From positions 1 to 54,673 of the IMG/VR virus record IMGVR_UViG_3300031939_000377: DNA of 54,673 bases; one strand, 5' to 3'. Position 1 is the stretch's first letter, and each line of letters opens with the position of its first letter. A program made the translations under genes and the position numbers. Source of the stretch: a virus. Lineage: Duplodnaviria > Caudoviricetes. The notes beneath the pieces were generated by a model. The model did no database searches. It had not been told where the DNA came from and saw nothing but the letters and a program-made list of their open reading frames with translations. Shown here one piece after another: positions 1-15,861 of this stretch.

Positions 1-1677
1 ATCATTTGGGTCAAGCACGGTGAGAGTGTTCCCCGCGATGGTTCTCCGGTTGTACTGCCAGTAGGTAGCGGAGTTCGCGTCAGTGTAGGGATTCTGAAGC
101 ACCAGGTAGTCCTGGTTGAATAGGCTGATGTTCCCGGCGTCCTCGTGCCGGTGGGTGTTACCTCGTAACGAACCGCTGTAAGTCAGATATGTATCGTTGG
201 CGCCCCATCCGGTGCGGACGATCACGTCAGTGCCGAAGCGCGCGGAAGTTGGCAGGTCGGTGAGATCGTGCGATCCGGGTCCGTTGACGTACGGCCAGAA
301 GAGCAGCTTCCACAAAAGGCCAGTGAAGCCACCATCGCCGGAATCCCAATTGCTGCCGACGTCGTTGTTCATCATCCAGACCATGTGCGGGTCCGGAAAC
401 CGATCGTTGAGGATGACGATACCGAAGTTGTCGCGGCCGGCAAACGGGCCGCCTGCGCTGGCGTCTCCAAATGACGCAGTGGACCCGTTCGGCAGCATCG
501 TATACATTTTGTATAGTGCGCCGCGCGCCGCGGTGGGAAACTGAGAGCCCCAGATGTTGTTGGCACGGCCGGTGGCGGTATCATATGCCTCGATGCCTCG
601 ATAGAAGCGGATCGCGCCTGACCTCCAATACGTAGGGCCCTCCCAGTTCATGGCTCCATCGGCGAGCACGTCGTTGCTCTTCTTGACGTTAAACTCGTAC
701 GAATCGGAAACCCCGGTGACGGGTTTCACCTGAATGCCTTCCCACAGATAGCCGGCGCCCTCGTTCAGCATCGTGGATCCCAGCGGATCGTCGCCAAACA
801 GGGCGAGGCCAGCCGTATCAATTCCGACCTCGTTCTTGGACGTGTAGTTGTGGAAGTCCGCCTCCCGCACGTTGTCTCCGAACCCGCTCGATGCGCGAGT
901 AAGCGTGCTGCTCCAGTAGTAAACCTTGACCCTGTCGCGGACTTCTACGTCGTGGCCGTTCGCCACCAGCCAGTCGTAGCACCAGTCGTAGAAGTAGGAG
1001 AGGGACTCAAGAACTTCGCCCACCTGCGAAGTCGCGTCATTTCCGGATGGCGTGCCGGCAGTGTAATACATGCCCGATTCGGTGTGCGTCTGCGAGACGA
1101 CGCCCGACGCGTAGGTAAAGTGCGTAGCGTCGATCACGCTGACGATATCCCTGCCGCCGTTCAAGGAATCGTTCGTTGCCCCCCACACGCCGTTGCAGCA
1201 TCCAGTGCTGAGCGTCGTCGTCGGCGTCGTGGACAAGGTGACCGTCGCGGTTCCGGACCCGTTCGTGACGATCGAGCTTATGGGTACCGGCTGCATGTAG
1301 TGCGTGGAGAAGGTGCTCCACAGGGCAGCCGCGTAGGGGTTGGCCGTCACATCATTGCCGGCATAGTGGTAGTAGGCGTAAATCAGCGCGTACGCCATCA
1401 CCGAGTTGCTGTAGCCCTCGTCCGTCGAGTTGTAGAAAGAGGGCGTGGAAGAGGCGCACAACGCCTTCAGCGACGCCAGGTCCGCCGCGGCGGTGGCGTT
1501 GCCGCCCAATGCCAGGGCCGAGCGCGCGGCCAAGCGCTTGGCGGGAGGTTGCCAGGTATCCGTCAGCGTATCGTTAATGAGCAGGCGAGGATGGCTGAGG
1601 ATAACGCTACGCGGGTTGGTCTGTCCCCACATCGAAAGTATGGAGCCCGCCGCCAGAAAAAGCCTTACAAGACGCAT
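1..1677 (-). CDS. Exported heparinase II/III-like polysaccharide lyase (3' end runs off window; not in ORF track)
   Basis: ATG at 1677 directly after the upstream stop. Segments translated by hand in one frame: signal-like MRLVRLFLAAGSILSMWGQ, HPRLL, WEGPTYW, RTGWG, THRHEDAGNISL, YNRRTIAGNTLTVLDP. Confidence 0.75.
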   Translation of the reverse strand, partial: MRLVRLFLAAGSILSMWGQTNPRSVILSHPRLLINDTLTDTWQPPAKRLAARSALALGGNATAAADLASLKALCASSTPSFYNSTDEGYSNSVMAYALIYAYYHYAGNDVTANPYAAALWSTFSTHYMQPVPISSIVTNGSGTATVTLSTTPTTTLSTGCCNGVWGATNDSLNGGRDIVSVIDATHFTYASGVVSQTHTESGMYYTAGTPSGNDATSQVGEVLESLSYFYDWCYDWLVANGHDVEVRDRVKVYYWSSTLTRASSGFGDNVREADFHNYTSKNEVGIDTAGLALFGDDPLGSTMLNEGAGYLWEGIQVKPVTGVSDSYEFNVKKSNDVLADGAMNWEGPTYWRSGAIRFYRGIEAYDTATGRANNIWGSQFPTAARGALYKMYTMLPNGSTASFGDASAGGPFAGRDNFGIVILNDRFPDPHMVWMMNNDVGSNWDSGDGGFTGLLWKLLFWPYVNGPGSHDLTDLPTSARFGTDVIVRTGWGANDTYLTYSGSLRGNTHRHEDAGNISLFNQDYLVLQNPYTDANSATYWQYNRRTIAGNTLTVLDPND

Positions 1678-1678
1678 A

Positions 1679-2974
1679 TTATTTTCCTTGCCTGTGCGCT
1701 GCCCCGCCAAACACTGGAAGTACCGGGCTGTTTATTCCCGCCCAGGCCACGGAGCCAAACAGATTGACGGGCGTGGAGGAGGTGCAAAACGGCCAGGTAG
1801 TTCCGCCGCTCCCAGTCGCGTACTTTCCGCTGTTGGAGCTGAACATATACCCTTCGACCGTGTTCAACGAAGGCCTGAATTTCAGATAGAAGAGGTGGGC
1901 GACGTCGCTGGCTCCGTCGGGCGTGCCTCCTGTGCAGTACGTGCCGGGCGGCGGGTTGAGAGAGGAGCCGGGGTTGTCCCGTTCCTGCATGTTGACGAAC
2001 AGCTGCTGGACGGTCTGCGCGCGCGAGGACGTGCTTGCCTGTTGCGACAGCCTCCAGTACGTGTTCCCCGACTGCCCGCCGTCGATCCAGTGCCCGCAGT
2101 ACAAGCCGAGCAGGTTGCTCCACTTCTGAAGTCCCGCCCACGTGGGATCAGAGGGATCGACAGCGTCCGAGGGAAAGTATCCGCGCCACATTTCGAGGCC
2201 GCTGTTGGCGTAGGGAGCTGCCGCCATCGAGTACAGCGTCGGCCCAAAGCCGCCGACGCGCGTGGCGAACGAGAACGACGTGCTGGTGGTGCTGTAACCG
2301 TGGGTGGTGACGTGGACCTCATAGCCCATGCCGACATACGAATCGTGCAAGCCTTTGGCCCAGTTCAACGGCCCGCTGCCGGGGTAGAATTCCAGGGAGA
2401 TGATCAGCAGCTTCCGGCTGCCTATTAGCAGGCTGATGGCCGTATTGGCTCCCGTGGTGTCATAACTTCCCACCCAGTACGCCATGTCGCCCGCGCCGAT
2501 CGACCGCCCCGCACCGAACCACGCGGCCCGCGTGTTGGCTCCCATGATGTTGCCTGCGAGGAAAGCAAAGCAGAGGTTGGATCGGCTGGACGCGCCACCC
2601 CTGCCCCCGTCGTAATCATGGTTTCCGGGAGGGCTGATATACGGAATGCCGGCAGTGTTCAGAATGGCCACTGCATTGGCGAATACCGTACCTTCGCCGT
2701 TAGATGCTACGGTGCCGTTGTTCTGGCAATCGCCCACCCCAATCACGCATTTCGTATTCCAGGCAGCCTGATCCGAAGCAATCCGGTTGGCCATCTGGTT
2801 GTATAACGCTGTGCAGCCAACCGACACGGTCAGGTACTGCGGGTCTGGAATGACGCAGATGGTGTAATCCGGATCGCTGAAAGCCTGCGACCTATTCGCC
2901 AGCAAGCCCATGAGCCCCGCGCTCGCCAGCCCCTGAAAGGCCCTCCGAGTGACACTGCGAAGCGCGCTATTCAC
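1679..2974 (-). CDS. Calcineurin-like metallophosphoesterase with Tat signal
   Basis: IPDPQY, GVGD, GNHDYD, TTH and CGH motifs; N-terminus VTRRAFQGLASAGLMGLLANRSQA. Confidence 0.8.
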   Translation of the reverse strand: MNSALRSVTRRAFQGLASAGLMGLLANRSQAFSDPDYTICVIPDPQYLTVSVGCTALYNQMANRIASDQAAWNTKCVIGVGDCQNNGTVASNGEGTVFANAVAILNTAGIPYISPPGNHDYDGGRGGASSRSNLCFAFLAGNIMGANTRAAWFGAGRSIGAGDMAYWVGSYDTTGANTAISLLIGSRKLLIISLEFYPGSGPLNWAKGLHDSYVGMGYEVHVTTHGYSTTSTSFSFATRVGGFGPTLYSMAAAPYANSGLEMWRGYFPSDAVDPSDPTWAGLQKWSNLLGLYCGHWIDGGQSGNTYWRLSQQASTSSRAQTVQQLFVNMQERDNPGSSLNPPPGTYCTGGTPDGASDVAHLFYLKFRPSLNTVEGYMFSSNSGKYATGSGGTTWPFCTSSTPVNLFGSVAWAGINSPVLPVFGGAAHRQGK

Positions 2975-3746
2975 TGAGCCTCCAACTCATTGGACGATCG
3001 AGCGCAATGACCCTCCGCGGAACTCGTGAAGTGACGCCGGAGGTTGGGCTAAAGGCCACGCCCATCATTCCGTGCGCAGTGCCTCCAGCCGTGAACGAGA
3101 TGGCTATCGTTCCGCCAGCGTTCGTCGCGGCGTTGTACTCTGCCAGAGTTCGAGTGACCCCGTTGGTCACCTGCGTAGCCGCCTGCGTGTATCCGGAGCC
3201 AGCGGAGAGCGTCGTGGATACGTCGCCATAGCCCCAAGGCAGCGCGTTCACTTGCGCTCCCGTTATGTTTCCTGACGTAGCGGTCGCGCTGCAGAATGGC
3301 GTTCCCGAGTTGGCGTTGGTCGGGGCAGGAATCGCAGGAGATCCCAGGTTCCACTGGTAGCTGTCCGCGAACAAGCTCCCAGTGGACCCGGCGCTCCACG
3401 TCGCCGTTACCGTCGTAGCTCCGGACGCGACGGACACCGTGGAGTAGATCTCGGCTATGGCGCGCCCCATCGAGCAGTTCGCGATCAACGTCCAGGGCGT
3501 TGACCCGGTGTTCGCCGAGTCCTTGATCGTGCAGGTGTTCGACAGGGACGCCGCGTCGCACCCGGCTACCAGCAAGTTCCCCACGTGCCCGACCGTCAGA
3601 TTGCAGGTTCCAGTCGCAGCTGTTCCGGTTACGCCGGCAGAACAGCCGGTTCCATCGTGCGCCCACGAGGCGACGAACGCGCTGGCGGGCCAGCGAAGAG
3701 CTACGCCCGCGGCAAGGATTACTAAAAGCAGGATTAGTTTCCGCAC
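2967..3746 (-). CDS. Secreted Thr/Ser/Gly-rich beta protein
   Basis: Sec signal MRKLILLLVILAAGVALRWPASA; Cys pairs; coupled to neighbours. Confidence 0.7.
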   Translation of the reverse strand: MRKLILLLVILAAGVALRWPASAFVASWAHDGTGCSAGVTGTAATGTCNLTVGHVGNLLVAGCDAASLSNTCTIKDSANTGSTPWTLIANCSMGRAIAEIYSTVSVASGATTVTATWSAGSTGSLFADSYQWNLGSPAIPAPTNANSGTPFCSATATSGNITGAQVNALPWGYGDVSTTLSAGSGYTQAATQVTNGVTRTLAEYNAATNAGGTIAISFTAGGTAHGMMGVAFSPTSGVTSRVPRRVIALDRPMSWRLSE

Positions 3747-3747
3747 G

Positions 3748-6072
3748 TTAGTTCACCGTGTACGTTACGCAGGCACTCAAGCGCTTCGCGCCGGTCGAGG
3801 CGAATCCGCTTCCCGTCTTGGTTTGAATCCAATCGCCGGCCGCCAGCACGTTTGCGCTCGCCGCAGTAACTATGGTGACTGTCCCACTCTTTGCTGTTCC
3901 GTCCAGACATGCAGAACCTGTAGCGGCGCATGCCACAGCACCAGATGCTGCCGTGGCAAGCTGGGCGCTAACCAAATCCGTTGCTGTTCCGGTGTGGTTC
4001 TTTTGTAGAATCACCGATGGAGTCCCAGCGTTTGCTGACACCGTTACTTCGATGACTGTACCGGCAACCGGCACCATAAATATGCGACCTTGAGGCCCAA
4101 TATCCGCATCCACCAGATCGGAAGATGCGTTATCCGTTCCGAAATCAAAGCAGGAAGTGCGGGTGATCGCTGGAACTGGCAGGTCTGCTGAGGTGGCCGT
4201 TGAAGGCGTAGCAACGGCTCCGGATACCGTGATCTTCACCAGGCCCGTGCTCAGAGCCCCAAGGTTGACCGCGTTGGCCGGTGCGTTCGTGCTGCTCGCC
4301 GTCCAGTAAGTGCCCAGTGCATTGGCTCCACTGCCGCCGCTGCCGCAGTCCGATCCAGTGCCGCTAACGACCCCCAGCGTACTGACGTGCAAGCACTGAG
4401 TAGATCCAGTGATCGTGTTGAACGTCGGCGCTGGCATTGTGACCGTTCCGGTGAGTGTAGGGGAAGCCAGCGGCGCGAACATTGAGGTCCAGCTCAATTG
4501 GTGGCAGGTGGTCGGAGCCCCAGCGGCCAGCGTGGGGCACGTTGTGGATCCGGTGTCGATGAGGGCCTGGTTTGCGGTGCCATTCGTAGCTGGCAGGACG
4601 TAGGCGATCGCCGTTCCAGCGACGTCGGCCGCCGCTAGGGCCACGACTCCGGAAGTGATCCCGGAGAGTGTCACCGATCCGCTCTTGGTGCCGTCGTAGA
4701 GAGTGAACGGTCCCGCCCAAGCGCTTCCGGAACAAATATAGACATTGACAGGAGTGGTTGAAGTGTCGCGATAGAACGCGCCGGCATTTGAACACGCGCC
4801 GCTTGGCGCGCCGGAACCGGATGTGGCGTACGATGCAATCGCCATGTACGTCCCGCTCAGATCGGGGATGTCGGCCGCCGTCGCCGCCGTGTCCGCGCTG
4901 CCCGCCCCCGCTCCTTTCCTCAGCCCGGTGACGCTCGCGGGGAACCTCGTGTCGTTGCCTATCGCGACCGTGCTGCTCGTCGTTCCCGTGGGGAGATCGG
5001 TGACGACGATGGTGTGGCAGGAGGAAGCGTGCGTCGTCGTGCTGTATCGCCATATGCCGCCGGTGCTCGTGCAATCCGCCAAACCGAGGAGTCCGAATGT
5101 CCCCGTGATCACCTGATCCTGTGTGCCCCCGGTGATTGTAGGCTGCTTCCCCGCCAGGTCCGCCACCAGCCCTGTCACGCCGCTCTCCGGGATCGCCGGC
5201 ATGTCAGTGGCGAGCAGCGCACACGGCCCAAACGTTGTAGCCGTCCCGCAAGTGCCGATTACCTGGTGGGAGGTCTGCGCCGCCGCGGCCGTCACCGCGA
5301 TGGTGCCATTGACGGTGAGCGGGCTTCCGGTAACCGATAGCCACGAGGGCACCGTCAGGCCGATTGAGGAGATACCGCCGCCGGCTCCCGGGCAGGTCAC
5401 AAAAGTCAGTACGCCAGTGCTCCAGCTCGGGCAGAAAGTACCATTCCCCGGATTGGCCAGGCGTTGGGGAACCCCAGAGGCCCCACCTATAATGAGATCC
5501 CCAGCGGACGTCATCGGGTTGGCAAACACTCCGAGGTTAGCCCGCGCCGTGGCGGCATTCGCCAAGTCGGATAAATTGTTTGCCGGTGTCAGGAAGGTCG
5601 GCACCCCCGTGATCTTCGACCAGGCCAGCGCCGTGATCCAGGAGGGATTGCTATAGCTCCCTGTCGAGTCGACGGCATTCGTCACCTGCGCCGCAGTGTA
5701 ATCTCCGGTCTGCGCCGCTACCGTTCCCGCGCGGCCGAAGACAGTCGAGACCGCCCCGCCCGTGGAATTCGCCCGCAGCCAGGCTAGGTTGTAGTCCAGC
5801 GCAATGTGGCTGCCCACCCGGCAGTCGGTCGGCTGGATGTTCACCGGAGAGCTGTAGACCAGCACCCACCAGGTCACCGAAATATCCGGCTGGTGGCCGG
5901 TATTGGACGCCTGGAGGCTGGTGTATGCCGATCCGGCGTAATATAGCGTGTCGTTGAGAGCGTAGGTTGTGCCGCTCGTGTACGTGCCTTGCCAGACGCG
6001 GGAGTCCGTCGCCGGGCATTGCGCCCAGAGGCTCCCGGCCAGCAGAATCAAAATTGCTAAAAGTCTTCGCAT
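3748..6072 (-). CDS. Tail-fibre-like protein with Sec signal peptide and CBM5/12-like domain
   Basis: MRRLLAILILLAGSLWAQ; WQGTYTSGTTYALNDTLYYAGSAY..P...WW; fibre motifs VSTVFGRAGTV, ANNLSDLANAATARANLG, NPMTSAGDLIIG, APLASPTLTG. Confidence 0.7.
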   Translation of the reverse strand: MRRLLAILILLAGSLWAQCPATDSRVWQGTYTSGTTYALNDTLYYAGSAYTSLQASNTGHQPDISVTWWVLVYSSPVNIQPTDCRVGSHIALDYNLAWLRANSTGGAVSTVFGRAGTVAAQTGDYTAAQVTNAVDSTGSYSNPSWITALAWSKITGVPTFLTPANNLSDLANAATARANLGVFANPMTSAGDLIIGGASGVPQRLANPGNGTFCPSWSTGVLTFVTCPGAGGGISSIGLTVPSWLSVTGSPLTVNGTIAVTAAAAQTSHQVIGTCGTATTFGPCALLATDMPAIPESGVTGLVADLAGKQPTITGGTQDQVITGTFGLLGLADCTSTGGIWRYSTTTHASSCHTIVVTDLPTGTTSSTVAIGNDTRFPASVTGLRKGAGAGSADTAATAADIPDLSGTYMAIASYATSGSGAPSGACSNAGAFYRDTSTTPVNVYICSGSAWAGPFTLYDGTKSGSVTLSGITSGVVALAAADVAGTAIAYVLPATNGTANQALIDTGSTTCPTLAAGAPTTCHQLSWTSMFAPLASPTLTGTVTMPAPTFNTITGSTQCLHVSTLGVVSGTGSDCGSGGSGANALGTYWTASSTNAPANAVNLGALSTGLVKITVSGAVATPSTATSADLPVPAITRTSCFDFGTDNASSDLVDADIGPQGRIFMVPVAGTVIEVTVSANAGTPSVILQKNHTGTATDLVSAQLATAASGAVACAATGSACLDGTAKSGTVTIVTAASANVLAAGDWIQTKTGSGFASTGAKRLSACVTYTVN

Positions 6073-6669
6073 TTAATTGCCTCCCCACGTCGTACCACTG
6101 CCCGCTCCGCCGCCCCAGGTCCCATCGCCGCCCGAACTTCCGCCGGTGCATCCCGATCCCAGCGAGGCGATCCCGCTAGCCACCTGGATGCAGTAATCGC
6201 CGTTAGCGACGGTCGATACGTTGAGCTGGGAAATCAGGAACAAGAGAGAAGGCGCCGGCGGAGTGCCCGTAATCTGCACATCCCCGATCCCGAGCGTGCT
6301 GGGCGAGGACGGCACCAGCCAATACCGCGGCTTGGGATCGTTCCACGGCCCAATCCGGTGGCCATTAATGACCTGCAGCGGCACCGAGCAGCGCACGGTG
6401 TAATACTGCCCGGCCGGCGTCGCCGTGTCGGTCGGCTGCAGGGTGACGCGCAACGCGCCGGCGGTAAAGTTGACCTGGACGGGCACGCCCCAGACCTGCA
6501 CATGGGTGGCAGCCTCAAAACCGAACGCGGTAATGGTGCAGGTGCCGGAGACCGGATCGTTATACGTCGGGACAGAGATAGTGCCCGTGATCGTGGTTTG
6601 CCCGTAGAGCGTCGAGATGCCGCCGGCCAGTGCGAGGATGGCCAGCCGGAAAGGGTTTAACAGCTTCAT
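6073..6669 (-). CDS. Secreted hypothetical protein, fibre-associated
   Basis: Signal-like MKLLNPFRLAILALAGGISTLYGQ; stop abuts next start. Confidence 0.65.
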   Translation of the reverse strand: MKLLNPFRLAILALAGGISTLYGQTTITGTISVPTYNDPVSGTCTITAFGFEAATHVQVWGVPVQVNFTAGALRVTLQPTDTATPAGQYYTVRCSVPLQVINGHRIGPWNDPKPRYWLVPSSPSTLGIGDVQITGTPPAPSLLFLISQLNVSTVANGDYCIQVASGIASLGSGCTGGSSGGDGTWGGGAGSGTTWGGN

Positions 6670-6685
6670 TTTGTTGCTCCATTGT

Positions 6686-7411
6686 TCATTTCGCAAGATT
6701 TCCAGAAATTATGCTTGTCGTCGGCCGGCCGCCCGGGCCGCCCACGGTATTACCCATCGGCATGAGCGCCACCGAGGAACTCTTGCCGTCGCAGCGCGCC
6801 GATCCCAGAGTTGCGGCAACGGCAGCAGTGGCGCGGCTTTCGGACTTGCCGTCGCAGCGGGCCGTGCAATGCAATGCATAGGACGCAGACACTCCGTCGC
6901 AGCGGGCGCTGAACACTGCTTGGATTCCCGTACTCGCGAGGCTGCTGCTGGAGCCTTCGCATTTCGCGGAGCCATAGGTCGCCGTGTGAGCGTGACAAAC
7001 GCTGTTCGACGTCCCGGCGCAGACCGCCGAGAAGATCACCAAGGCGAGGATCTGGAAGTACCGCAAGCTGCTCGGCGGATTCGGTGAACCGGCGGAAATC
7101 GTGAATTGGTATGTTCCAACCGTCGTCGGCGTGCCGGAAATACGCCCGGTCGAAGAGTCCAGCGATAGCCCCGGCGGCAGGCTTCCGGTCACGATACGGT
7201 AGCCCGTTGAAAAAGGCATCCACTGGAGCCGCACATCGTATGGGTAGGACAGGTGCGCGGCCTCCAGATCCTCATACTGATACGGCAGGACCGCACGGTT
7301 GTTCGGAGACGGCTTCACAATCTGGTGCCGCCCTCCCAACACAGAACCGAACCCAACTGGCTGGACAGCGGGATTCGAGGCTTCTGACGCGGTTGCCTTC
7401 GGTGTGGACAT
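6686..7411 (-). CDS. Putative Ig-domain virion protein with C-terminal S-A-R-C-D-G repeats
   Basis: LPPGLSLDSSTGRISGTPTTVGTYQFTISA (He_PIG-like); five SARCDG-like units. Confidence 0.65.
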   Translation of the reverse strand: MSTPKATASEASNPAVQPVGFGSVLGGRHQIVKPSPNNRAVLPYQYEDLEAAHLSYPYDVRLQWMPFSTGYRIVTGSLPPGLSLDSSTGRISGTPTTVGTYQFTISAGSPNPPSSLRYFQILALVIFSAVCAGTSNSVCHAHTATYGSAKCEGSSSSLASTGIQAVFSARCDGVSASYALHCTARCDGKSESRATAAVAATLGSARCDGKSSSVALMPMGNTVGGPGGRPTTSIISGNLAK

Positions 7412-8587
7412 TTAGTCGAACCTCATGCAGAGCGCTCCGCCCGTGGTCGGTATCGAAGAGTTCGCGAAGCCGTCTCCTGGCGCGGCGAATATGAACCTTC
7501 CGGCCTTGCTCGGCAAGTAGGTACGCGTACTGCCGTAGATCACTGCCGTAAACGTCACGCCTTCCACGATGTCGCCTTGGTATGCGGAGCCGACGACCGT
7601 GAGCTGATAATCGAAGAAGCCCACGCACGGCGAGCAGGTGTCGAACGGGATCGAGCCGTTGAACGCCGAGGTGCCCTGGACGATACAGGCGCGGCTGATC
7701 CATGCGCCGTATCCGTTTCCCTGATCGTTGTAGCTGGCGGGCGCCGGACCGACTCCGAACAAAAACGACGCCTGGATCGCGTGGTTGCTGTTGTTGTGGT
7801 TCCCGCAAGTGAAGATAGTCACATGCGAGCCCGTATACGCGCCGGTCGAATCGACGGAGCGCTCAATGGCAAAGAATTGCTGGCATACGTTAATGCCGGT
7901 GCGCCAGAACATCGCAGCCATGCGCCCGCTGGCCGCCGAAAAATCGCATTCGTATTGAGCGGATGAACTGGGAACGGTGTAGGTCGCGGACGCCGCGACT
8001 ATCGGGCCGAGCGTTCCCGTTCCGCCGTTCAGCGTCCCCGCGCCGTCAGTTCCCTCGGATACAGAGAGGCGGAACGTCGGGTCGTTGCTCGACCCGGAAA
8101 CGTTCCCGTATTCCAGCTTGAGGTAGAAGTTTGCCAGAGAGTCGTTGGGCTGCCAGATCTCATAAACAAATGCTCCGGAGCCAGGAACAGAGGTTATGGC
8201 CGTCGTGGTCCCGCTGCCCGCGTGCGTCTCATTGACCTGAGTGGAAGTGCCGACTGTAACGGTTCCACTCGAGCCGCCCGAAACCGCCGTCAGGGTGGCC
8301 GTGACATTATTGCCGCCGTTCGAAAAGCCAGAGAAGGTCACGGACATTCCAACGCGCGGCGCCGGCCCTGTATAGCCGGAATAGCTATACACTGCGTTGC
8401 CCCCGCTTACAGCAACCTGAGTCAGCGTGAGAACGGTTGCCGTCCACACCACCTGCCCGGTGTCGTTGCTTTGCTTCCAGGGCGCGCCCGATAAGCCCGC
8501 CAGAAAGGCGCTAAACGGGCTCGCCCATTGAATGAAATTGGATACGGTGCTGCTGTCGCACACGAGGTTCTGAGTTGAGGTGGCCAT
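7412..8587 (-). CDS. Minor tail/virion structural protein
   Basis: Coupled ORF in tail operon; Ser/Thr/Gly-rich beta composition. Confidence 0.6.
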   Translation of the reverse strand: MATSTQNLVCDSSTVSNFIQWASPFSAFLAGLSGAPWKQSNDTGQVVWTATVLTLTQVAVSGGNAVYSYSGYTGPAPRVGMSVTFSGFSNGGNNVTATLTAVSGGSSGTVTVGTSTQVNETHAGSGTTTAITSVPGSGAFVYEIWQPNDSLANFYLKLEYGNVSGSSNDPTFRLSVSEGTDGAGTLNGGTGTLGPIVAASATYTVPSSSAQYECDFSAASGRMAAMFWRTGINVCQQFFAIERSVDSTGAYTGSHVTIFTCGNHNNSNHAIQASFLFGVGPAPASYNDQGNGYGAWISRACIVQGTSAFNGSIPFDTCSPCVGFFDYQLTVVGSAYQGDIVEGVTFTAVIYGSTRTYLPSKAGRFIFAAPGDGFANSSIPTTGGALCMRFD

Positions 8588-8995
8588 TTAGCTCTCCGAT
8601 GTAGTGAAGGTTCCGATGGGATATGCAAACGGGATTCCGGCAGCCGCCACTATCGGCGGGCCCTCCGCGTAGACGCGGTACAGGTTCCCTCCGGAGCTTG
8701 CGTCATACTGCCCAACGCCCACAATCATGCCCCAACCAGGGCCGGTGGGAGTTCCGAAGTTGAACACGGTCCCGTTCGACATCAGCGCCGAGACGATGGC
8801 CGGGAAATTCGTCGTGTTCGCCGTGACCGCAAGGCGTGCATATCCGTTGCTGCCGATGGTTACCTCTGTGCCGCCCAGCCCATCCACTCCGGGAAGCACC
8901 GTGAACAAAGCGAAATACCACGTAGCAACAACCCCCCCGCTGTACTCAGTGTTGAGAATCAGGTTCGAGTAGTAGGTAGTTTTGAATCCGGCCAT
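8588..8995 (-). CDS. Small phage tail/fibre protein
   Basis: YFALFT..PG..G.GGTEV...GYAR pattern typical of siphovirus minor tail proteins; AGGAG RBS. Confidence 0.7.
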   Translation of the reverse strand: MAGFKTTYYSNLILNTEYSGGVVATWYFALFTVLPGVDGLGGTEVTIGSNGYARLAVTANTTNFPAIVSALMSNGTVFNFGTPTGPGWGMIVGVGQYDASSGGNLYRVYAEGPPIVAAAGIPFAYPIGTFTTSES

Positions 8996-9015
8996 CTGGT
9001 TTTTCTCCTGACAAT

Positions 9016-11483: not shown

Positions 11484-11881
11484 CAGTAGTACACCTTGAA
11501 CGTGGCGATTCCCGCGCCATCTTTCTGCCCATCAGAGGCCAGCACGTCACATAAAAATGAAGCGTCCGCCGGGAGTGAAGTGGTGCCAGAGAACGTTGTA
11601 AACGTCATGACGTCGCGCACTGCCCGGGTATGCGGAATCGTGCAGGTGGCGAGTGTCCAAAGCCCGGTCCCATCGTGCAACACCAGCCGGAATCTCACGG
11701 TAAGATCCGCCGTAATCGGCAGTCGCAGGTTGCCCGTGATCTTTGAACACGTCCCGGCCCGCTCGACCGTCACCGCATCGCCTGTATCGTTGCCGACGGT
11801 GCTGTCCTTTACGTCGAGCGTGAGCGTCTTCAGAGCGCCGGCACTAGCTCCACTTCCGCCGATGAGTGTTGCTTTACCCAT
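11483..11881 (-). CDS. Tail-associated hypothetical protein
   Basis: ATG overlapping end of tip gene; TGATG coupling downstream. Confidence 0.55.
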   Translation of the reverse strand: MGKATLIGGSGASAGALKTLTLDVKDSTVGNDTGDAVTVERAGTCSKITGNLRLPITADLTVRFRLVLHDGTGLWTLATCTIPHTRAVRDVMTFTTFSGTTSLPADASFLCDVLASDGQKDGAGIATFKVYY

Positions 11882-14800
11882 TGATGCGATAAGTCCTCGG
11901 CTGGTTGGGATCAACGGTAAAACTGCTGATCGGCCCGGATTCGCTGCCGAACGTGTCAGTCGTGCTCGGGTCTACCTGCACGGTGAATGTGTGCGCCGAC
12001 GTGTCGGCGCGGTCCCACGTCATGACCATGTTGGGCAGCTGGCTGAACGGCAGCATCGTGTAAACGATGTCGTTTGAAGTGCAGTCGGCGACGATCAGGG
12101 AATCGGTGTAAATCATCGTCTGCGAAGCTGTGATGATCCGTGTTCCCTGTGCGCCCCAGATGTAGATTTCGCGATACGGAGACCAGCGTTTGAGGGACGT
12201 TTTGCCGGTCTGGTCGGCCGTCAGTGCCCTCACGAGAATGACCTGCTTGGCGTAATTGAGAATGTTGACGGTGGCCACCTGGGGCGGCGGCGTGGCCAGC
12301 ATCATCGAATTCGAGATGGTGGCGGTCGGCTGGTCCTGCCAGGCGGAGTATTCGATCACGTACCGGGTGGTGTTGTCGGGTGTAGTGTGCCAGGCCTGGT
12401 CGATGGTGATGGTGTCGTTGGTATTGCCAACGATATTTCGCTCCTGGCCTTTCCCCGTGCCGCGGGTGAGCCGCACGCGGCCGCCCACCAACTCGTTCCC
12501 CGCCGTGCCGAATCCGTCGGGCAGGTATCCGTTGACGGTGTTCGGGTCTCCGATCGTAGTGTCGGTGATGACCGTCGGGCAGTAATTGATCTTGAAGACG
12601 GTGCCATCCTGGATGCCGGCGACGGTCGGATCCGGCCGCACATGGTAGACGCCGGCAACATTGTCGATCACGTGATAGTCGGCGATCGGGACCGTCCCGG
12701 TGTTCCCGTAGGGCAGAGCCAGGACACTCAAGTCATAGCCGTGAGTAGAGTCGATCTCCTGGAACTGATGGTCCGTGACGGTGTGGCCGATGAAGTGGAT
12801 GAAGCCAGTCCCGTCTCCGTTCGACGTCGGAGTTCCAAAACAGCTATCCCCCCAAGGTCCGCCGTGGATCTCTTCCTTGACTTCGATCACCAGACCGGCC
12901 GAGAGCGCGTCTGGCGGGCCGTAGGTTGCAATGTTTAGGGCGGTAATGGTGATGGTGCTGGGAGTGGCAGTGCCTGAAGCTTGCGCCGAGAGGCTGTTGT
13001 GCCCAATGCCGGCGAACAGAACCCATGCGGCCGTTCCCGTCCCCCAACTGATCGTCGGCGTAACCGCGGTGTTCGTGTCGGTGCCAGCGGGGATGGTCAC
13101 GGAAGTGAAGCTCGAGAGTGCCGACCATTTGCCGTTGACGTCCTGCACTGAAATCGCCATGAGGATGCGCTGGCCGCCCTTGATCGTGCCGCCCGTGTTG
13201 GCGGTGTTGGCCTCGGTGTTCATGAGCGGCGGCTGCACGCGCGCTGGTCCCGTGGTCAGTGTGTTCACCGTCGGGTTGCCGATGATCGGCAGGACCGCGA
13301 GCGGGGATCCGTCGCCTGCCAGGCCGTAGACCTGGGAAACCCCGAAATTCCATTCCGAAGGGTCATACATCGAATCGCCGGCGATCGGCTGCTCCGCATA
13401 GGGTCTCCAGGGCAGCGGCGGCCGCGTGGGCAGCGGTTGGCGCGGATCGCTGTAGCCGGGTGTGCCCCTCTGGCCGTAAATGTCGGTGTACCAGCGGTCA
13501 TCATGCCAGCGCAGCGTGACCGTCATGCGCTGGTAGTTGGAAGCCGGTTTGATCGCCTCTACGCGCACCAGAATGCCGGTGATGCCCGTTCCCGGCGGCG
13601 ACTGGAGCGGAACGGAGGGCGCCAGGGCCTGCGATTGGAAGCGCAACAGGCAGATGTGCCCGACGCGCAAGTGCGCCAGCCGGTGCGTCGTAGTCGGCTG
13701 CCAGAAGTAAGTGCCGCGGGTGTCGAGCCACGGATTGCCGCGGAAGTTCTCGGCCAGGATGACGTTGCACGTCCGGATCCCCTGGTCGAAAGAGGAGACT
13801 CCGCGGACGGTATAGCCGGCGGGGATCTGGGCGCCGCCCAGCTGGTAGCCGGCCGCCCGGGCGACGTCGTCTGGATCCACCACCGAGATGGAATCGTCCT
13901 GAAAGCCGTTATCGGCATCCTGGAAGCCGAAGCTGATGGAGTTGGGCGATTGCGCGTTTGCCAGGGCATACGGCCCTTCCATTTGCGGCTGGCCCTTGCC
14001 GTCCTGCAGGATGACGGCGTCGTCGATCAGGTAGGCGACATAAGCAGACCCATTGTCGCCGACGCCGTCCGCCACAGTGTTATCCGCGTGCACGGAGAGG
14101 ACGGGCGTGTCGTAGTTGGAGCCCGGGACGGGCGCGGGTTGCTGGTCCGCCAGCGTTTTCCGGATGAAAAACTGCAGCAGGCCGGTATCAGAATTCGGAA
14201 TGAGCTGCCCGTTGCACCCGCGCAGCATGGCCTGGATGATCTCGTTAGCCTTGCCCTGCTCCTCGATCGCCTGCTGGCAAATGAAGCGCGCGTGAGTCTG
14301 CGCGTTCCCGTTCAGATCGATATAGGAGACCGGCGCATCGCAATATGCCGCTTCGGCGACGAAGGAGGCCGTATCCAGTTCCTGGAAGCTGTAGTTGGCC
14401 CAGATCAGTTTGTCGTAGAGCGTCCATGCGTAATTGGTGGTTCGCGCGAGAACCCTGGTGTATGGTCCGGACCCCGTATAGGTGACCAGAAAGGTCCCTT
14501 GCTTCAGACGGACCTGGACGCTGGGAATGGAGTTCGACGCAGCCAAGTCCGAATACACTACGATCTCGATGGTTGCCAGGCCGCCGTAAGGGTCACCCAA
14601 AGAGTTGTAGCCCAGATCGGCTGTAGCAATTCCGTTGCGGCCTCCGGTATGAGTTGAAACGGAGGCCGTGGCATCCGTCAAGCTGTCGAGGAAGTTCCAC
14701 CGCTCCAGCGGGTCAGTGCCTACTTGCGCATTCGGCGGAATGAGAATCCCGTTCACCACAACGACGTCGACGCCGTCATGGCCGATATCGCCGGAGCAGA

Positions 14801-15809
14801 GAACCACTTCCATCCTGGTCGCGTTGCCGTCACCCAAGACGTTGGCGATGATCGGGTTCTTGATCCACTGCGCGCCGTCAACCAGGGGATATGGCCGGTT
14901 GTAGATGGCTTCATTACGCGCGCGAAAGACGGTGACCTTGCCCTTCACGTAATTGGTGGCCTGGACTTCGCGATTGTCCGGCGACCATTGGATCCCTTTG
15001 AATCGCCCGGTGGCCCTATCGCTCGAATCCTGCGAATACATGCCGCGGGCCACGCAATCGGCCTTGGTGTAATTGCAGGCGATGTAGATGCCGGCGCCGT
15101 CCGCAATCACGTTGCGCTGCGGGTCGGTCGCGTTCGCGGTGGTGGTGTTGCCCCGTCGACAATCTCCGCCAATTTCGGGATCCGTGCCGGCCTGGTCCGG
15201 GTTGTAGCCGCAGCCCCACTGCCAGGAGGACATGTCTGTCGCGCCGGCCAACCGCTCAAAGGCGTTTCGCGGGAACAGATTGACGCATCTCTGCTGCACG
15301 CGCTCAATGGGCAGGTCGACCAGCGCGAGATTGTGGGAAGTGGTGGCCCGGATCGAAAGGAACTGGGCGCCGGCGGGCGCTTTTCCGGGAGCATCGCAAA
15401 TCCCGGTGAATTTGAATGGCGCCGGCGAATCGTCGCTGAAGACGTAATCGCCGGTTGCCGGATCGATGTCTCGCAGCACCAGGGCGAGCTGCAGGATGGC
15501 TCCCTTGAAGCCCTTGCCGTTCGCCAGTTCGTAATTGAGCAGGAGGAACTGATCGGCATTGTAGAGATTCAGCGTGACGTCGCTGATCCGGTCGATGCCC
15601 TGCTCGCTGCGCGCCTGGACCTGTTGGATATCCTGCGCATCGATGCGCGCAAGATAATCGTTGCCGGCGTACTGGTTTCCACCTTCTCCGGCGTTCAGCG
15701 GATGGGTGCTGGCGCGAAGATAAGAGCCGTCGGCGAACTGGAAAGTTGCCAGCAGCATTGGCGCATAGTTGCCCTCTTTGTTGTCAATGAGGGGGCCGGG
15801 CAGCGCCAT
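11874..15809 (-). CDS. Tail tip / baseplate hub protein (central fibre, lambda J or GTA-like)
   Basis: 1311 aa, position after distal tail gene, Cys cluster near N-terminus (CNYTKADC). Confidence 0.7.
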   Translation of the reverse strand: MALPGPLIDNKEGNYAPMLLATFQFADGSYLRASTHPLNAGEGGNQYAGNDYLARIDAQDIQQVQARSEQGIDRISDVTLNLYNADQFLLLNYELANGKGFKGAILQLALVLRDIDPATGDYVFSDDSPAPFKFTGICDAPGKAPAGAQFLSIRATTSHNLALVDLPIERVQQRCVNLFPRNAFERLAGATDMSSWQWGCGYNPDQAGTDPEIGGDCRRGNTTTANATDPQRNVIADGAGIYIACNYTKADCVARGMYSQDSSDRATGRFKGIQWSPDNREVQATNYVKGKVTVFRARNEAIYNRPYPLVDGAQWIKNPIIANVLGDGNATRMEVVLCSGDIGHDGVDVVVVNGILIPPNAQVGTDPLERWNFLDSLTDATASVSTHTGGRNGIATADLGYNSLGDPYGGLATIEIVVYSDLAASNSIPSVQVRLKQGTFLVTYTGSGPYTRVLARTTNYAWTLYDKLIWANYSFQELDTASFVAEAAYCDAPVSYIDLNGNAQTHARFICQQAIEEQGKANEIIQAMLRGCNGQLIPNSDTGLLQFFIRKTLADQQPAPVPGSNYDTPVLSVHADNTVADGVGDNGSAYVAYLIDDAVILQDGKGQPQMEGPYALANAQSPNSISFGFQDADNGFQDDSISVVDPDDVARAAGYQLGGAQIPAGYTVRGVSSFDQGIRTCNVILAENFRGNPWLDTRGTYFWQPTTTHRLAHLRVGHICLLRFQSQALAPSVPLQSPPGTGITGILVRVEAIKPASNYQRMTVTLRWHDDRWYTDIYGQRGTPGYSDPRQPLPTRPPLPWRPYAEQPIAGDSMYDPSEWNFGVSQVYGLAGDGSPLAVLPIIGNPTVNTLTTGPARVQPPLMNTEANTANTGGTIKGGQRILMAISVQDVNGKWSALSSFTSVTIPAGTDTNTAVTPTISWGTGTAAWVLFAGIGHNSLSAQASGTATPSTITITALNIATYGPPDALSAGLVIEVKEEIHGGPWGDSCFGTPTSNGDGTGFIHFIGHTVTDHQFQEIDSTHGYDLSVLALPYGNTGTVPIADYHVIDNVAGVYHVRPDPTVAGIQDGTVFKINYCPTVITDTTIGDPNTVNGYLPDGFGTAGNELVGGRVRLTRGTGKGQERNIVGNTNDTITIDQAWHTTPDNTTRYVIEYSAWQDQPTATISNSMMLATPPPQVATVNILNYAKQVILVRALTADQTGKTSLKRWSPYREIYIWGAQGTRIITASQTMIYTDSLIVADCTSNDIVYTMLPFSQLPNMVMTWDRADTSAHTFTVQVDPSTTDTFGSESGPISSFTVDPNQPRTYRING

Positions 15810-15861
15810 TACGCGGCGTCCTCCGCCCTTGCAGCCTGTGGTGATTTAGCCACGGTTTCCC

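What the first reader, a model, noticed from the sequence alone, without database searches (positions are those of the whole stretch)
1..6669. Tail operon ends in five coupled genes that all carry export signals, including a disulfide-rich tail-fibre-like protein
Seen: five consecutive genes on the tail strand (gaps 0-1 nt or a short overlap) begin with Sec-type (4) or twin-arginine (1) leaders. 3748..6072 has classic fibre motifs (NNLSDLANAATARANLG, VSTVFGRAG, APLASPTLTG), a CBM5/12-like domain and 18 Cys by my count, mostly in local pairs. Known: tailed virions assemble in the reducing cytoplasm and fibres normally lack signal peptides. Inference: these proteins fold oxidatively in the periplasm and either join the virion at lysis or act as a secreted adhesin/depolymerase module, an uncharacterised assembly route.
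Basis: partly seen in the sequence, partly recalled or inferred. Interest (0 to 1): 0.8.

Follow-up and report, generated by a model that had tools for sequence, protein, structure and literature searches.

The report
Phage tail fibre genes with export signals
A soil phage of Acidobacteria puts bacterial secretion signals on the last five proteins of its tail operon, among them both halves of a side tail fibre, so these host-recognition parts probably fold outside the cytoplasm where the rest of the particle is built.

Summary
Five coupled genes end the tail operon of a temperate siphophage, and each starts with a leader: four Sec-like, one twin-arginine. The leader-including starts are the only ones with a ribosome-binding site.

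- **g1 (198 aa):** folds like the collar domain that fastens lambda Stf and other side or neck fibres to virions.
- **g2 (774 aa, 18 Cys):** leader, weak CBM5/12-like domain, fibre shaft motifs, C-terminal jelly-roll head.
- **g3:** unknown.
- **g4:** a metallophosphoesterase-fold enzyme on the Tat leader.
- **g5:** a heparinase-II-like lyase, 77% identical to genes in bacterial exopolysaccharide loci.

Elsewhere the g1 domain and the g2 head occur fused in one leader-bearing protein. Among g2 homologues, leaders go with high cysteine content (p = 1.4e-9).

Related phage contigs keep leader-bearing anchored fibres or spikes directly after the large distal tail protein, or between tail genes and excisionase/integrase. 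The fibre genes are therefore phage genes, not host DNA.

Export and oxidative folding are well supported indirectly. Docking to the virion after lysis is inferred from the anchor fold only.

This scan noted the same phenomenon on other Acidobacteria phage DNA. My literature searches found no description of it.

The parts
6073..6669 (-). g1, 198 aa. Sec-like leader, then a beta-sandwich of the phage fibre collar/anchor kind (aa ~23-136), then a Cys-closed hairpin and a Gly/Trp-rich tail. 4 Cys.
   Evidence: - Start ATG 6669 has a GGAG-like site upstream.
- All 8 family members show a leader-like N-terminus by eye in the printout; 7 of 8 have 4 Cys.
- AF2 model has pLDDT about 85 over aa 25-135.
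- Fold matches: Ur-lambda gpStf collar 9e7m_Ta Z 9.0, Bxb1 tail tip Z 8.9, A-1(L) neck fibre Z 9.1, XM1 neck Z 8.6. Foldseek top hit is the A-1(L) tail fibre, E 2e-4. BFVD gives 26 hits at E<=1e-3; the named ones are mostly tail fibre or minor tail proteins.
3748..6072 (-). g2, 774 aa. Sec-like leader (aa 1-18), weak CBM5/12-like domain (aa ~27-73), fibre shaft motifs (aa ~100-300), Cys-paired middle part, C-terminal jelly-roll head. 18 Cys.
   Evidence: - The ATG abuts the g1 stop, with GGGAGG 7 nt upstream.
- Cys positions.
- Homologues.
- Atlas nearest clusters are viral (score 0.87, a lead only).
- One cultured phage, Leeuwenhoekiella phage Arctus_1, has an annotated leaderless tail fibre that shares the shaft motif.
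3751..4182 (-). C-terminal domain of g2 (aa 631-774): a jelly-roll beta-sandwich with conserved Cys. Where matched, it lies at the C-terminal end of the homologue.
   Evidence: - 641 cluster representatives at E<=1e-3; 100 of the 149 best carry a leader-like N-terminus.
- Alignments A3 and A4.
- AF2 pLDDT 93.7.
- Best structural match is the Agrobacterium phage 7-7-1 tail fibre 9rkv_M, Z 8.1. The other matches are generic jelly rolls, so this is a weak match.
- 78% identical to the end of a 235-aa leader-bearing protein in phage contig L001.
2967..3746 (-). g3, 259 aa. Strong Sec-like leader, 6 Cys, family unknown. Near its C-terminus it has an R-V-x-R-R-V-I motif shared with two small leader proteins of L001.
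   Evidence: -.
- No Pfam, PHROG, NCBIfam or PDB sequence hit.
- Motif: seen by eye; the regex found 2 hits in 2503 ORFs.
1679..2974 (-). g4, 431 aa. Twin-arginine leader (T-R-R-A-F), metallophosphoesterase fold, 8 Cys.
   Evidence: - GTG start with GGAGG 5 nt upstream.
- Atlas by features: 0.96-0.97 to Acidobacteriota clusters and to a cluster with Metallophos (PF00149) on 78% of members.
- Atlas by structure: TM 0.65-0.74, with the Metallophos name bar met in 3 rows.
- Pfam itself gives no Metallophos hit. The G-N-H-D motif was seen by eye.
1..1677 (-). g5, first 558 aa of a longer protein. Sec-like leader, heparinase-II-like polysaccharide lyase. Cut by the contig end.
   Evidence: - Weak hits at aa 468-558: NCBIfam HepB E 4e-5 and PDB heparinase II E 8e-4.
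- 77% identical over 559 aa to leader-bearing 1539-aa proteins in bacterial loci with Wzy_C, Polysacc_synt_3, FkbM methyltransferases, MBOAT, PP-binding and FkbH.
- A 49%-identical homologue has a sub-threshold HepII_C match, 24 bits against a 26.1 cut-off.
6686..8995 (-). Three leaderless distal tail genes just upstream: 8588-8995 (Gp80 fibre family), 7412-8587, and 6686-7411 (He_PIG Ig-like domain).
   Evidence: - Pfam Gp80 E 8e-15 and He_PIG E 3e-12.
- In relatives L083 and L085/87/89 the plus-strand run ends after the He_PIG gene and no leader cassette follows. In L088 the locus ends within that gene.
11874..20240 (-). Tape measure protein (16968-20240), a 321-aa tail protein (15862-16827) and a 1311-aa distal tail protein (11874-15809). 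They define the tail operon that the cassette ends.
   Evidence: - PHROG tape-measure and tail hits.
- The 1311-aa protein has no family or PDB hit.
- Its homologues in L153, L158 and L101 come before leader-bearing anchored fibres.
53726..54673 (-). Tyrosine integrase at the opposite end of the contig. It marks the element as temperate and places the cassette at the far end of the genome map.
   Evidence: Pfam Phage_integrase E 1.5e-7 and PHROG integrase.

Best explanation
The five genes are the distal end of the late tail operon of a temperate siphophage of Acidobacteria (Bryobacteraceae-like). All five products are made with the tail proteins and sent across the inner membrane: g1, g2, g3 and g5 by Sec, and the metal enzyme g4 by Tat. 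They fold there with disulfide bonds.

- **g1 and g2** are the two halves of a side tail fibre of the lambda Stf kind. g1 supplies the collar/anchor domain plus a short tail. g2 supplies a sugar-binding-like domain, the shaft and a jelly-roll head.
- **g4 and g5** are host-type exoenzymes, a phosphoesterase and a polysaccharide lyase taken from an exopolysaccharide locus. They most likely cut the host's slime layer as free enzymes.
- **g3** is an exported protein of unknown role.

The partners of an anchor domain, the tail tube and tip, are built in the cytoplasm. The fibre therefore most likely meets finished tails only when holin and endolysin breach the envelope.

**Shown here:** gene structure, leaders and their conservation, the link between leaders and cysteines, the folds, the fusion of the g1 and g2 parts elsewhere, and phage context.

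**Inferred:** cleavage, export, disulfides, docking and enzyme substrates.
For: **Starts and transcription**
- The leader-including start codons are the only ones with Shine-Dalgarno-like sites and stop/start coupling. The next in-frame starts lie inside conserved domains.
- There is no promoter-like or terminator-like site on the coding strand within 1-6700.

**Leaders are conserved while their sequence drifts**
- The closest g2 homologues keep the leader plus the CBM-like domain.
- The 77%-identical g5 homologue has a different leader.
- 115 of 150 leader-bearing homologues end the hydrophobic core with [AG]Q, against 987 of 9546 background 15-mers.

**Leaders go with cysteines**
- Of 99 g2 homologues, 43 with a leader have a median of 13 Cys and 56 without have a median of 3 (Mann-Whitney p = 1.4e-9).
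- All five cassette proteins have even Cys counts.

**Leader type fits the cargo**
- The one Tat leader sits on the one metalloenzyme fold.

**g1 has a virion-anchor fold**
- The top four VIA matches are phage collar or neck-fibre domains, including Ur-lambda gpStf aa 1-94 (Z 9.0, rmsd 3.2 A, 90 aligned).
- Foldseek PDB and BFVD agree.
- The Ur-lambda paper (PMC12617516, passages read) describes that domain as the collar that ties Stf to the gpV/gpM junction.

**The g1 and g2 parts occur fused**
- The g1 domain sits directly after a leader in three proteins (P0243, P0198, P0229) that were found as homologues of g2's C-terminal half. P0198 and P0229 end in the g2-type head domain; P0243 does not. 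P0229 also carries the shaft motifs.
- A g1 homologue sits directly upstream of a leader-bearing g2 homologue in the Mu-like phage L002.

**Phage context in related contigs**
- L158: a homologue of the 1311-aa tail protein is followed directly by an 851-aa leader + g1-domain + tailspike-like protein.
- L153: the same tail protein, one more gene, then a 321-aa leader + g1-like protein.
- L098: a leader-bearing fibre lies between tail-side genes and excisionase plus serine integrase.

**Physical continuity**
- Codon usage shows no break: cassette-to-tail distance 0.070, tail-to-head 0.075.
- One 7233-nt contig of a public run covers 961-8193 without a difference. That run may be the source sample.
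Against: - Nothing shows cleavage, export, disulfides or presence on particles.
- My leader calls are heuristic.
- The anchor-fold scores (Z about 9) sit only just above the level that unrelated beta-sandwiches reach (7-8; notes). Transthyretin-like and CnaB folds follow closely at Z 8.2 and below.
- g2's head matches a phage fibre only at Z 8.1, among generic jelly rolls.
- Relatives that share the distal tail genes lack the cassette, so it is dispensable for building a tail.
- This phage also has leaderless fibre-family genes: 8588-8995 (Gp80), 7412-8587 and 6686-7411.
- In L002 the leader cluster lies before the terminase, not in a tail module.
- g5's nearest relatives are ordinary bacterial genes in exopolysaccharide loci. 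g4's nearest Atlas clusters are bacterial.
- g2 itself has no anchor domain, and its binding to g1 is untested.
- The Cys contrast inside this window is only about twofold.
Confidence: 0.5

Rival explanations
1. The proteins are exported but never become part of the particle. Made late in infection, or at a low level in lysogens, they act on the producing cell's own envelope and slime. The lyase and phosphoesterase loosen exopolysaccharide so that progeny escape. The fibre-like g1/g2 proteins bind and mask or mark surface glycans, which would give receptor blocking, superinfection exclusion or adhesion.
For: - g4 and g5 are host-type enzymes without any anchor domain. g5 is 77% identical to genes in bacterial exopolysaccharide loci that also hold leader-bearing collagen-repeat and lectin-like proteins.
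- The g2 head domain also occurs as short leader + domain proteins of 156-235 aa, which cannot be fibres.
- Relatives with the same distal tail genes do without the cassette.
- In L002 the cluster sits outside the tail module.
- Known phage proteins with signal peptides are non-virion proteins: the secreted endolysin Lys44 and the T4 RI antiholin (review PMC6116005, passages read).
Against: - g1 has the fold that fastens fibres to virions.
- In L158 that domain is fused behind a leader to a tailspike-like body directly after the large tail protein. An anchor has no obvious use off the particle.
- Translational coupling to the tail operon, with no promoter-like or terminator-like site of its own, is unlike lysogenic-conversion morons.
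- None of the five leaders has a lipobox, unlike Llp, Cor or Bor (by eye; those names are recalled).
Confidence: 0.3
2. The hydrophobic N-termini are not used as export signals, either because the true starts lie downstream or because the leaders are inactive. The proteins would then stay in the cytoplasm and assemble conventionally.
For: - No experimental or SignalP evidence was available here.
- Leaderless homologues with the same shaft motifs exist. They include the annotated tail fibre of the cultured Leeuwenhoekiella phage Arctus_1 and a 581-aa fibre after the Gp80-like gene in the acidobacterial prophage L105.
Against: - Downstream starts lack ribosome-binding sites and would cut into conserved domains.
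- Leaders are kept across homologues at 40-80% identity.
- Leaders end in a shared [AG]Q motif in 115 of 150 cases.
- Leaders track cysteine content.
- The Tat/Sec split follows the cargo type.
Confidence: 0.07
3. Part or all of the block is host DNA beyond the prophage end, wrongly included in the viral record.
For: - The contig ends inside g5, so no att site or flank can be read.
- g5 has 77%-identical relatives in plainly bacterial loci.
- g4 and g5 have no close relatives in the viral contig collection.
Against: - All junctions from the tail gene 6686-7411 to g5 are 16 nt or less, or overlap, which leaves no room for an attachment site.
- g1 and g2 have relatives flanked by phage genes on both sides in L001, L002, L098, L153 and L158.
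- Codon usage shows no break.
- The integrase lies at the other end of the map, as expected if the cassette is the last phage block before attachment.
Confidence: 0.05

Closest known systems
Lambda side tail fibre Stf (Ur-lambda; PDB 9e7m, paper PMC12617516)
   Same: - It is encoded at the end of the tail operon, after the central fibre gene.
- It has an N-terminal collar domain of about 94 aa, a flexible linker, a trimeric shaft and a distal receptor-binding part.
- g1 matches the collar domain at Z 9.0, rmsd 3.2 A, over 90 of 94 residues.
   Different: - Stf has no leader and assembles in the cytoplasm (established knowledge; the paper's model starts at residue 1).
- Here the anchor and the shaft/head lie on two polypeptides. 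Both have Sec-like leaders and paired cysteines.
- Sequence identity is only 18%.
Neck and tail fibres with the same N-terminal beta-sandwich: cyanophage A-1(L) (8keg, 8kec), mycobacteriophage Bxb1 tail tip (9d93), phage XM1 neck (7kjk), DEV collar (9cod)
   Same: These are the best structural matches of g1 by two programs. All are virion-attachment domains of fibre proteins.
   Different: - The scores are moderate.
- I know of no leader on any of them (own knowledge, not checked here).
Phage proteins known to carry signal peptides: secreted endolysin Lys44 of Oenococcus phage fOg44, SAR endolysins, T4 antiholin RI (review PMC6116005, passages read)
   Same: They are tailed-phage late proteins exported by the host Sec system ahead of lysis.
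   Different: - They are lysis proteins, not virion or fibre-like proteins.
- They have no anchor domain and no fibre motifs.
Virion-bound and free phage depolymerases (tailspikes; review PMC6116005)
   Same: - Polysaccharide-cutting enzymes are encoded with the tail genes.
- L158 has a leader + anchor + tailspike-like protein.
   Different: - Known depolymerases reach the outside by lysis, not by a signal peptide.
- g4 and g5 are not beta-helix spikes. They are a metallophosphoesterase fold and a heparinase-II-like lyase of host type.
Collagen-like surface fibres with C1q/TNF-like jelly-roll heads (C1q, adiponectin; BclA of Bacillus, the last recalled)
   Same: - An exported fibre ends in a C-terminal jelly-roll head.
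- C1q-type heads appear among the weak Foldseek matches of the g2 head.
- Several g2 homologues carry collagen repeats.
   Different: - The matches are weak (TM 0.33-0.43).
- g2 has no collagen repeats.
- g2 lies in a phage context.

Membership tests
Side tail fibre of the lambda Stf kind | N-terminal collar/anchor beta-sandwich that docks on the tail | tested here: met
   - g1 aa 23-136: VIA Z 9.0 to gpStf aa 1-94, and Z 8.6-9.1 to three other phage collar or neck-fibre domains.
- Foldseek PDB and BFVD agree.
- This is similarity of fold only. The scores are just above the usual noise.
Side tail fibre of the lambda Stf kind | [quoted passage not shown] | tested here: met
   - Gene order in the window.
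- In L158 and L153 the leader-bearing anchored proteins follow homologues of the 1311-aa tail protein.
Side tail fibre of the lambda Stf kind | Made without a leader and assembled onto tails in the cytoplasm | tested here: not met
   g1 and g2 both start with Sec-like leaders at the only plausible start codons.
Side tail fibre of the lambda Stf kind | Trimeric shaft; anchor and shaft in one complex; present on particles | not testable with these tools
   - The complex prediction tool was full and then unavailable.
- No proteomics exists for this phage.
Sec (SPase I) signal peptide | Positive n-region, hydrophobic core of 9-14 residues, small residues at -1/-3 | tested here: met
   - Heuristic scores: g1 2.50, g2 3.51, g3 3.78, g5 2.34.
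- Shared [AG]Q ending in 115 of 150 leader-bearing homologues.
- SignalP was not available.
Twin-arginine (Tat) signal peptide | [ST]-R-R-x-F motif before a mildly hydrophobic core and an A-x-A-like end | tested here: met
   - g4 N-terminus read by eye: T-R-R-A-F, core score 1.91, then S-Q-A.
- No Tat predictor or profile hit was available.
Pfam CBM_5_12 (PF02839) | Score at or above the gathering threshold of 26.2 bits | tested here: not met
   - g2 aa 31-58: 12.2 bits, E 0.2.
- This is only a resemblance. PHROG hits on the same stretch are families of unknown function.
Metallophosphoesterase (Pfam Metallophos, PF00149) | Profile match or fold, plus the metal-binding motifs | tested here: inconclusive
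   - No Pfam hit.
- Atlas feature score 0.96 to a cluster in which 78% of members carry Metallophos. Structure rows have TM 0.65-0.67 and meet the name bar.
- The G-N-H-D motif was seen by eye.
Heparinase II/III-like polysaccharide lyase | Profile match to the catalytic region and C-terminal domain | tested here: inconclusive
   - Only aa 468-558 match: NCBIfam HepB 21.7 bits against a cut-off of 600, and PDB heparinase II E 8e-4.
- The gene is cut by the contig end.
- A 49%-identical homologue has HepII_C at 24 bits against a cut-off of 26.1.
Prophage moron / lysogenic-conversion gene | Own promoter and terminator, transcribed independently of the late operon | tested here: not met
   - No promoter-like or terminator-like site on the minus strand in 1-6700.
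- Junctions are 0-16 nt or overlap.
- The scan covers sigma-70-type sites only.

The most novel reading that the evidence does not exclude
Tailed phages of Acidobacteria, and some other soil bacteria, build their particles in two compartments. Heads and tails assemble in the cytoplasm. The receptor-binding fibres and spikes, including their collar/anchor domains, are exported by Sec or Tat and oxidised in the periplasm. They snap onto finished tails only when the envelope is breached at lysis. In this phage the fibre is split into an exported anchor stub (g1) and an exported shaft/head (g2), and it travels with exported slime-cutting enzymes taken from the host.
Probability: 0.4. Interest if true: 0.9.

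Novelty: new variant of a known kind. Interest (0 to 1): 0.72.

Why it matters
Textbook assembly of tailed phages happens wholly in the reducing cytoplasm. Signal peptides on fibre proteins, down to the domain that fastens them to the tail, would mean a second, extracytoplasmic branch of virion assembly.

If true, this would matter in four ways:
- It would explain how soil phages obtain disulfide-hardened host-recognition gear.
- It would change how fibres and depolymerases of uncultured phages are annotated, and how they are expressed in the laboratory. They would need periplasmic or oxidising expression.
- It would give a simple sequence marker, leader plus paired cysteines, for host-range proteins in metagenomes.
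- It shows phages recruiting host exopolysaccharide enzymes into the tail operon.

The claim can be tested directly with any inducible acidobacterial lysogen or with the cultured Acidobacteria phages.

Tried and rejected
**Contig ends and RNA genes**
- No terminal repeat. The contig is the whole record held, so no att site could be sought.
- No tRNA.

**Searches that found nothing or too little**
- g2 whole and its head domain against cultured phage genomes: no match.
- g4 and g5 in viral contigs: no close relative.
- g3: no family, no PDB sequence match and no relative among fetched loci.
- g2, the 1311-aa tail protein and the Gp80-like protein against PDB sequences: nothing usable.
- g1 'longer' homologue search: none found, which the tool itself calls weak evidence.
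- Tandem repeats in 1-9000: only three trivial short arrays.

**Alignments too diverse for locus scans**
- I then used the narrower A2 and A7.

**Complex prediction**
- I wanted the g1 tail x3 with the g2 N-terminal part x3.
- The queue was full and then the tool was declared unavailable. Nothing was folded.

**Sequencing runs**
- No RNA holder is listed; four soil DNA runs hold the stretch.
- Parts without cover in the laid contigs say nothing.

**Literature**
- Four full-text searches gave no paper describing signal peptides on tail fibres or tailspikes (search listings only):
  - tail fiber + signal peptide + prophage + periplasm
  - Acidobacteria + prophage + tail fiber
  - Tunturi + Acidobacteria + phage
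  - tailspike + signal peptide + bacteriophage + disulfide

- The Tunturi virus paper PMC11924767 has 0 occurrences of 'signal peptide', 'tail fiber', 'tailspike', 'mass spectrometry' and 'structural protein'. Its supplements were not looked at.

**Readings considered and dropped**
- Lipoprotein exclusion factors of the Llp/Cor/Bor kind: no lipobox.
- T9SS-type C-terminal sorting domain for the g2 head: the domain also matches a phage fibre end, and I had no evidence for such a secretion system.


Full report
**What the window is**

The window is a single 54,673-base virus record with no terminal repeat.

Family scans give a temperate siphophage map. Genes are on the minus strand unless marked.

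- Tyrosine integrase, 53726-54673
- Excisionase-like gene, 53019-53432 (+)
- Endolysin, 38888-39328
- Serine recombinase, 38267-38881
- Small terminase, 37623-38111
- Large terminase, 34515-35825
- Portal, 32010-33569
- Major head protein, 30136-31053
- Tape measure protein, 16968-20240
- Large distal tail proteins
- A Gp80-family fibre gene, 8588-8995
- Gene 7412-8587
- A He_PIG Ig-domain gene, 6686-7411
- The five genes of the finding, which run off the left end

Two homologues carry source names of Bryobacteraceae MAGs, and the best genome matches are Acidobacteriia MAGs. The host is therefore most likely an acidobacterium.

**The observation**

- g2 has 18 cysteines, and seven local pairs are evident.
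- The three fibre motifs are present in its translation.
- SignalP was not available, so I wrote a crude leader detector. It flags 12 of 52 minus-strand ORFs at a lax score and 7 of 52 at a strict one. g1, g2, g3 and g5 are among the seven.
- g4 has T-R-R-A-F and a milder core, the twin-arginine pattern.
- With 8 positives in 52 genes, a run of five or more occurs in 8.5e-4 of shuffles.
- The CBM5/12 resemblance is weak (E 0.2).
- The cysteine contrast inside the window is only about twofold, and the neighbouring leaderless tail proteins are also Cys-rich.

**Are the leaders real?**

- Each leader-including start has a Shine-Dalgarno-like site or abuts the previous stop.
- The next in-frame starts have no such site and fall inside conserved domains.
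- The closest g2 homologues (P0002, P0003, P0039, P0071) keep the leader plus the CBM-like domain although their C-terminal parts differ.
- All eight g1-family proteins show a leader-like N-terminus by eye, and seven of the eight have four cysteines.
- The 77%-identical g5 homologue has a leader of a different sequence.
- Across the leader-bearing homologues gathered, 115 of 150 end the hydrophobic core with [AG]Q. The background is 10%.
- Of 99 g2 homologues, 43 have a leader and a median of 13 cysteines, and 56 have none and a median of 3 (p = 1.4e-9).
  - The split is not clean. 16 of the 56 have 8 or more Cys; some are visibly truncated or have a leader that my detector missed.
  - 6 of the 43 have fewer than 8 Cys.
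- The only Tat-type leader sits on the only metalloenzyme fold. That is what Tat export of cofactor-loaded proteins would predict (established knowledge).

**What the proteins are**

*g1*
- The AF2 model has pLDDT of about 85 over aa 25-135.
- It matches four phage fibre-attachment domains best:
  - the cyanophage A-1(L) neck fibre (Z 9.1)
  - the Ur-lambda tail tip chain of 94 residues (Z 9.0, rmsd 3.2 A, 90 aligned)
  - the Bxb1 tail tip (Z 8.9)
  - the XM1 neck (Z 8.6)
- Generic transthyretin/CnaB sandwiches follow at Z 8.2 and below.
- Foldseek puts the A-1(L) tail fibre first (E 2e-4) and lists the DEV collar, Bxb1, XM1 and Ur-lambda chains.
- In BFVD, 26 viral proteins match at E<=1e-3. 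The named ones are mostly tail fibre or minor tail proteins.
- The Ur-lambda paper (PMC12617516, passages read) states that gpStf residues 1-94 form the collar domain. Twelve copies surround the gpV/gpM junction, and flexible linkers tie them to the trimeric fibre.
- These Z values are only just above what unrelated sandwiches reach. I take the agreement of three searches as the evidence, not any single score.

*g2*
- Its C-terminal 144 residues fold confidently (pLDDT 93.7) into a jelly roll.
- The best match is the end of the Agrobacterium phage 7-7-1 tail fibre (Z 8.1), among many generic jelly rolls.
- The domain is widespread: 641 cluster representatives at E<=1e-3. Where matched, it lies at the C-terminal end of proteins of 93-1505 aa. 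100 of the 149 best carry a leader.

*g4*
- Metallophosphoesterase fold, by Atlas features and structure.

*g5*
- Heparinase-II-like, on weak profile hits.

*g3*
- Unknown.

**g1 and g2 belong together**

- An HMM of the g1 family finds the g1 domain directly after a leader in P0243, P0198 and P0229. All three had been found as homologues of g2's C-terminal half.
- P0198 and P0229 end in the g2-type head domain; P0243 has a different C-terminal end. P0229 also has the shaft motifs.
- In the Mu-like phage contig L002, a g1 homologue (36% identity) lies directly upstream of a leader-bearing g2 homologue of 895 aa with 24 Cys.
- The window's pair therefore looks like a split version of a single leader-anchor-shaft-head fibre.

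**Phage or host?**

For g1-g2 the answer is phage.

- **L001:** leader-bearing proteins, one ending in the g2 head at 78% identity, lie between a fibre-like gene and the terminase and portal.
- **L158:** a homologue of the 1311-aa tail protein is followed at once by an 851-aa protein with a leader, the g1 domain and tailspike-family PHROG hits.
- **L153:** the same tail protein, one more gene, then a 321-aa leader + g1-like protein.
- **L098 (an Acidobacteriia MAG):** a 992-aa leader-bearing fibre lies between tail-side genes and an excisionase-like gene and serine integrase.
- Of 77 viral loci with the shaft motif, 24 have a leader-like start on the fibre ORF. One of these is doubtful, and six carry the same protein.

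g4 and g5 are different.

- g5 is 77% identical over 559 residues to 1539-aa leader-bearing proteins in bacterial loci.
- Those loci hold Wzy_C, a Wzx-type flippase, FkbM methyltransferases, MBOAT, a carrier protein and FkbH.
- They sit next to leader-bearing collagen-repeat and lectin-like proteins.
- Neither enzyme has close relatives in viral contigs.

Even so, every junction from the tail gene to g5 is 16 nt or less, or overlaps. Codon usage shows no break. A 7233-nt public contig spans 961-8193 without a difference, though it may come from the source sample. I read g4-g5 as host genes captured into the operon, not as flanking host DNA.

**What speaks for caution**

- Relatives that share genes 7412-8587 and 6686-7411 (L083, L085/87/89) end the operon there, with no leader cassette. 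The cassette is an add-on.
- The phage keeps leaderless fibre-family genes.
- In an acidobacterial prophage (L105), a leaderless, Cys-poor fibre with the same shaft motif follows the Gp80-like gene.
- In L002 the leader cluster precedes the terminase rather than ending a tail module.
- The head domain also exists as short leader + domain proteins, which cannot be fibres.
- There is no evidence here for cleavage, export, disulfides or presence on particles.
- The complex prediction that might have linked g1 to g2 could not be run.

**How it most likely works**

- *Late transcription with the tail genes:* inferred from the coupling and from the absence of promoter-like or terminator-like sites.
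- *Export by Sec or Tat, then disulfide formation:* inferred.
- *g1 and g2 form an anchored side fibre that can reach its docking site on the tail only after the holin/endolysin step mixes the compartments:* inferred from the anchor fold.
- *g4 and g5 act as free exoenzymes on the host's exopolysaccharide, easing release or adsorption:* inferred from their families and origin.

My odds are about 0.5 for this reading. They are 0.3 for export without any virion role, 0.07 for unused leaders and 0.05 for host DNA.

**Relation to what is known**

- The closest known thing is the lambda Stf side fibre and its collar domain. The defining difference is the leader, together with the split into two polypeptides.
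- The review I read describes phage signal peptides only for lysis proteins (PMC6116005, passages).
- My four full-text searches (listings only) found nothing on leader-bearing fibres.
- The Tunturi virus paper has none of the relevant terms.

**Earlier notes of this scan**

Earlier notes report the same phenomenon on at least nine other windows, mostly phages of Acidobacteria. The scan has therefore found this before on other DNA. I did not check those windows.

This window adds four things:
- a lambda-like temperate siphophage
- an anchor domain on its own exported polypeptide
- a Tat leader on a metalloenzyme
- a lyase traceable to host exopolysaccharide loci

Noticed in passing
window 35914-36483 (-): A sixth leader-bearing protein (189 aa, 1 Cys, leader ending A-Q) sits between a patatin-like phospholipase gene and the large terminase. 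Its beta-rich C-terminal part might be an outer-membrane barrel of the Lom kind. It has no family hit.
   Followed up: partly
window 36510-37418 (-): A patatin-like phospholipase (Pfam E 1.5e-17) lies inside the packaging module, between the small and large terminase genes.
   Followed up: no
window 45309-46463 (+): A RelA/SpoT-domain protein (Pfam E 1.9e-17; phrog_4773 E 3e-87) lies on the opposite strand in a lower-GC stretch of the early region. It may be a small alarmone synthetase toxin or defence gene.
   Followed up: no
window 6686-7411 (-), C-terminal half: The leaderless He_PIG tail protein ends in four or five loose repeats of an A-[RK]-C-[DE]-G-x-S motif and has 7 Cys. No DNA tandem repeat was detected.
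   Followed up: partly
window 2967-3746 (-) near the C-terminus; L001 1325-1726 and 2470-3093: Three small leader-bearing proteins next to leader-bearing fibres share an R-V-x-R-R-V-I motif at or near the C-terminus. The regex found 2 hits in 2503 ORFs; the third was seen by eye.
   Followed up: partly
window 38267-38881 (-) and 53726-54673 (-): The phage carries a serine recombinase between the endolysin and the small terminase, and also a tyrosine integrase at the contig end.
   Followed up: no
L079 6362-14605; L080, L081: Bacterial exopolysaccharide loci hold three coupled leader-bearing genes: a Cys-rich collagen-repeat protein (829 aa, 21 Cys), a Laminin_G_3 lectin-like protein (376 aa) and the 1539-aa g5-like lyase. 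This is a host counterpart of the phage cassette's layout.
   Followed up: partly
L096-L101 (one Acidobacteriia MAG): Six contigs of one MAG each carry a copy of this leader-bearing fibre-like protein: four complete at 992 aa with 12 Cys, and two cut or called shorter (977 and 752 aa). This suggests several related prophages or binned phage contigs.
   Followed up: partly
L002 9127-15381: A Mu-like phage (rve transposase, AAA_22, Mu portal) has four consecutive leader-bearing genes, including g1 and g2 homologues. They lie between its early genes and the terminase, where Mu keeps its lysis genes.
   Followed up: partly
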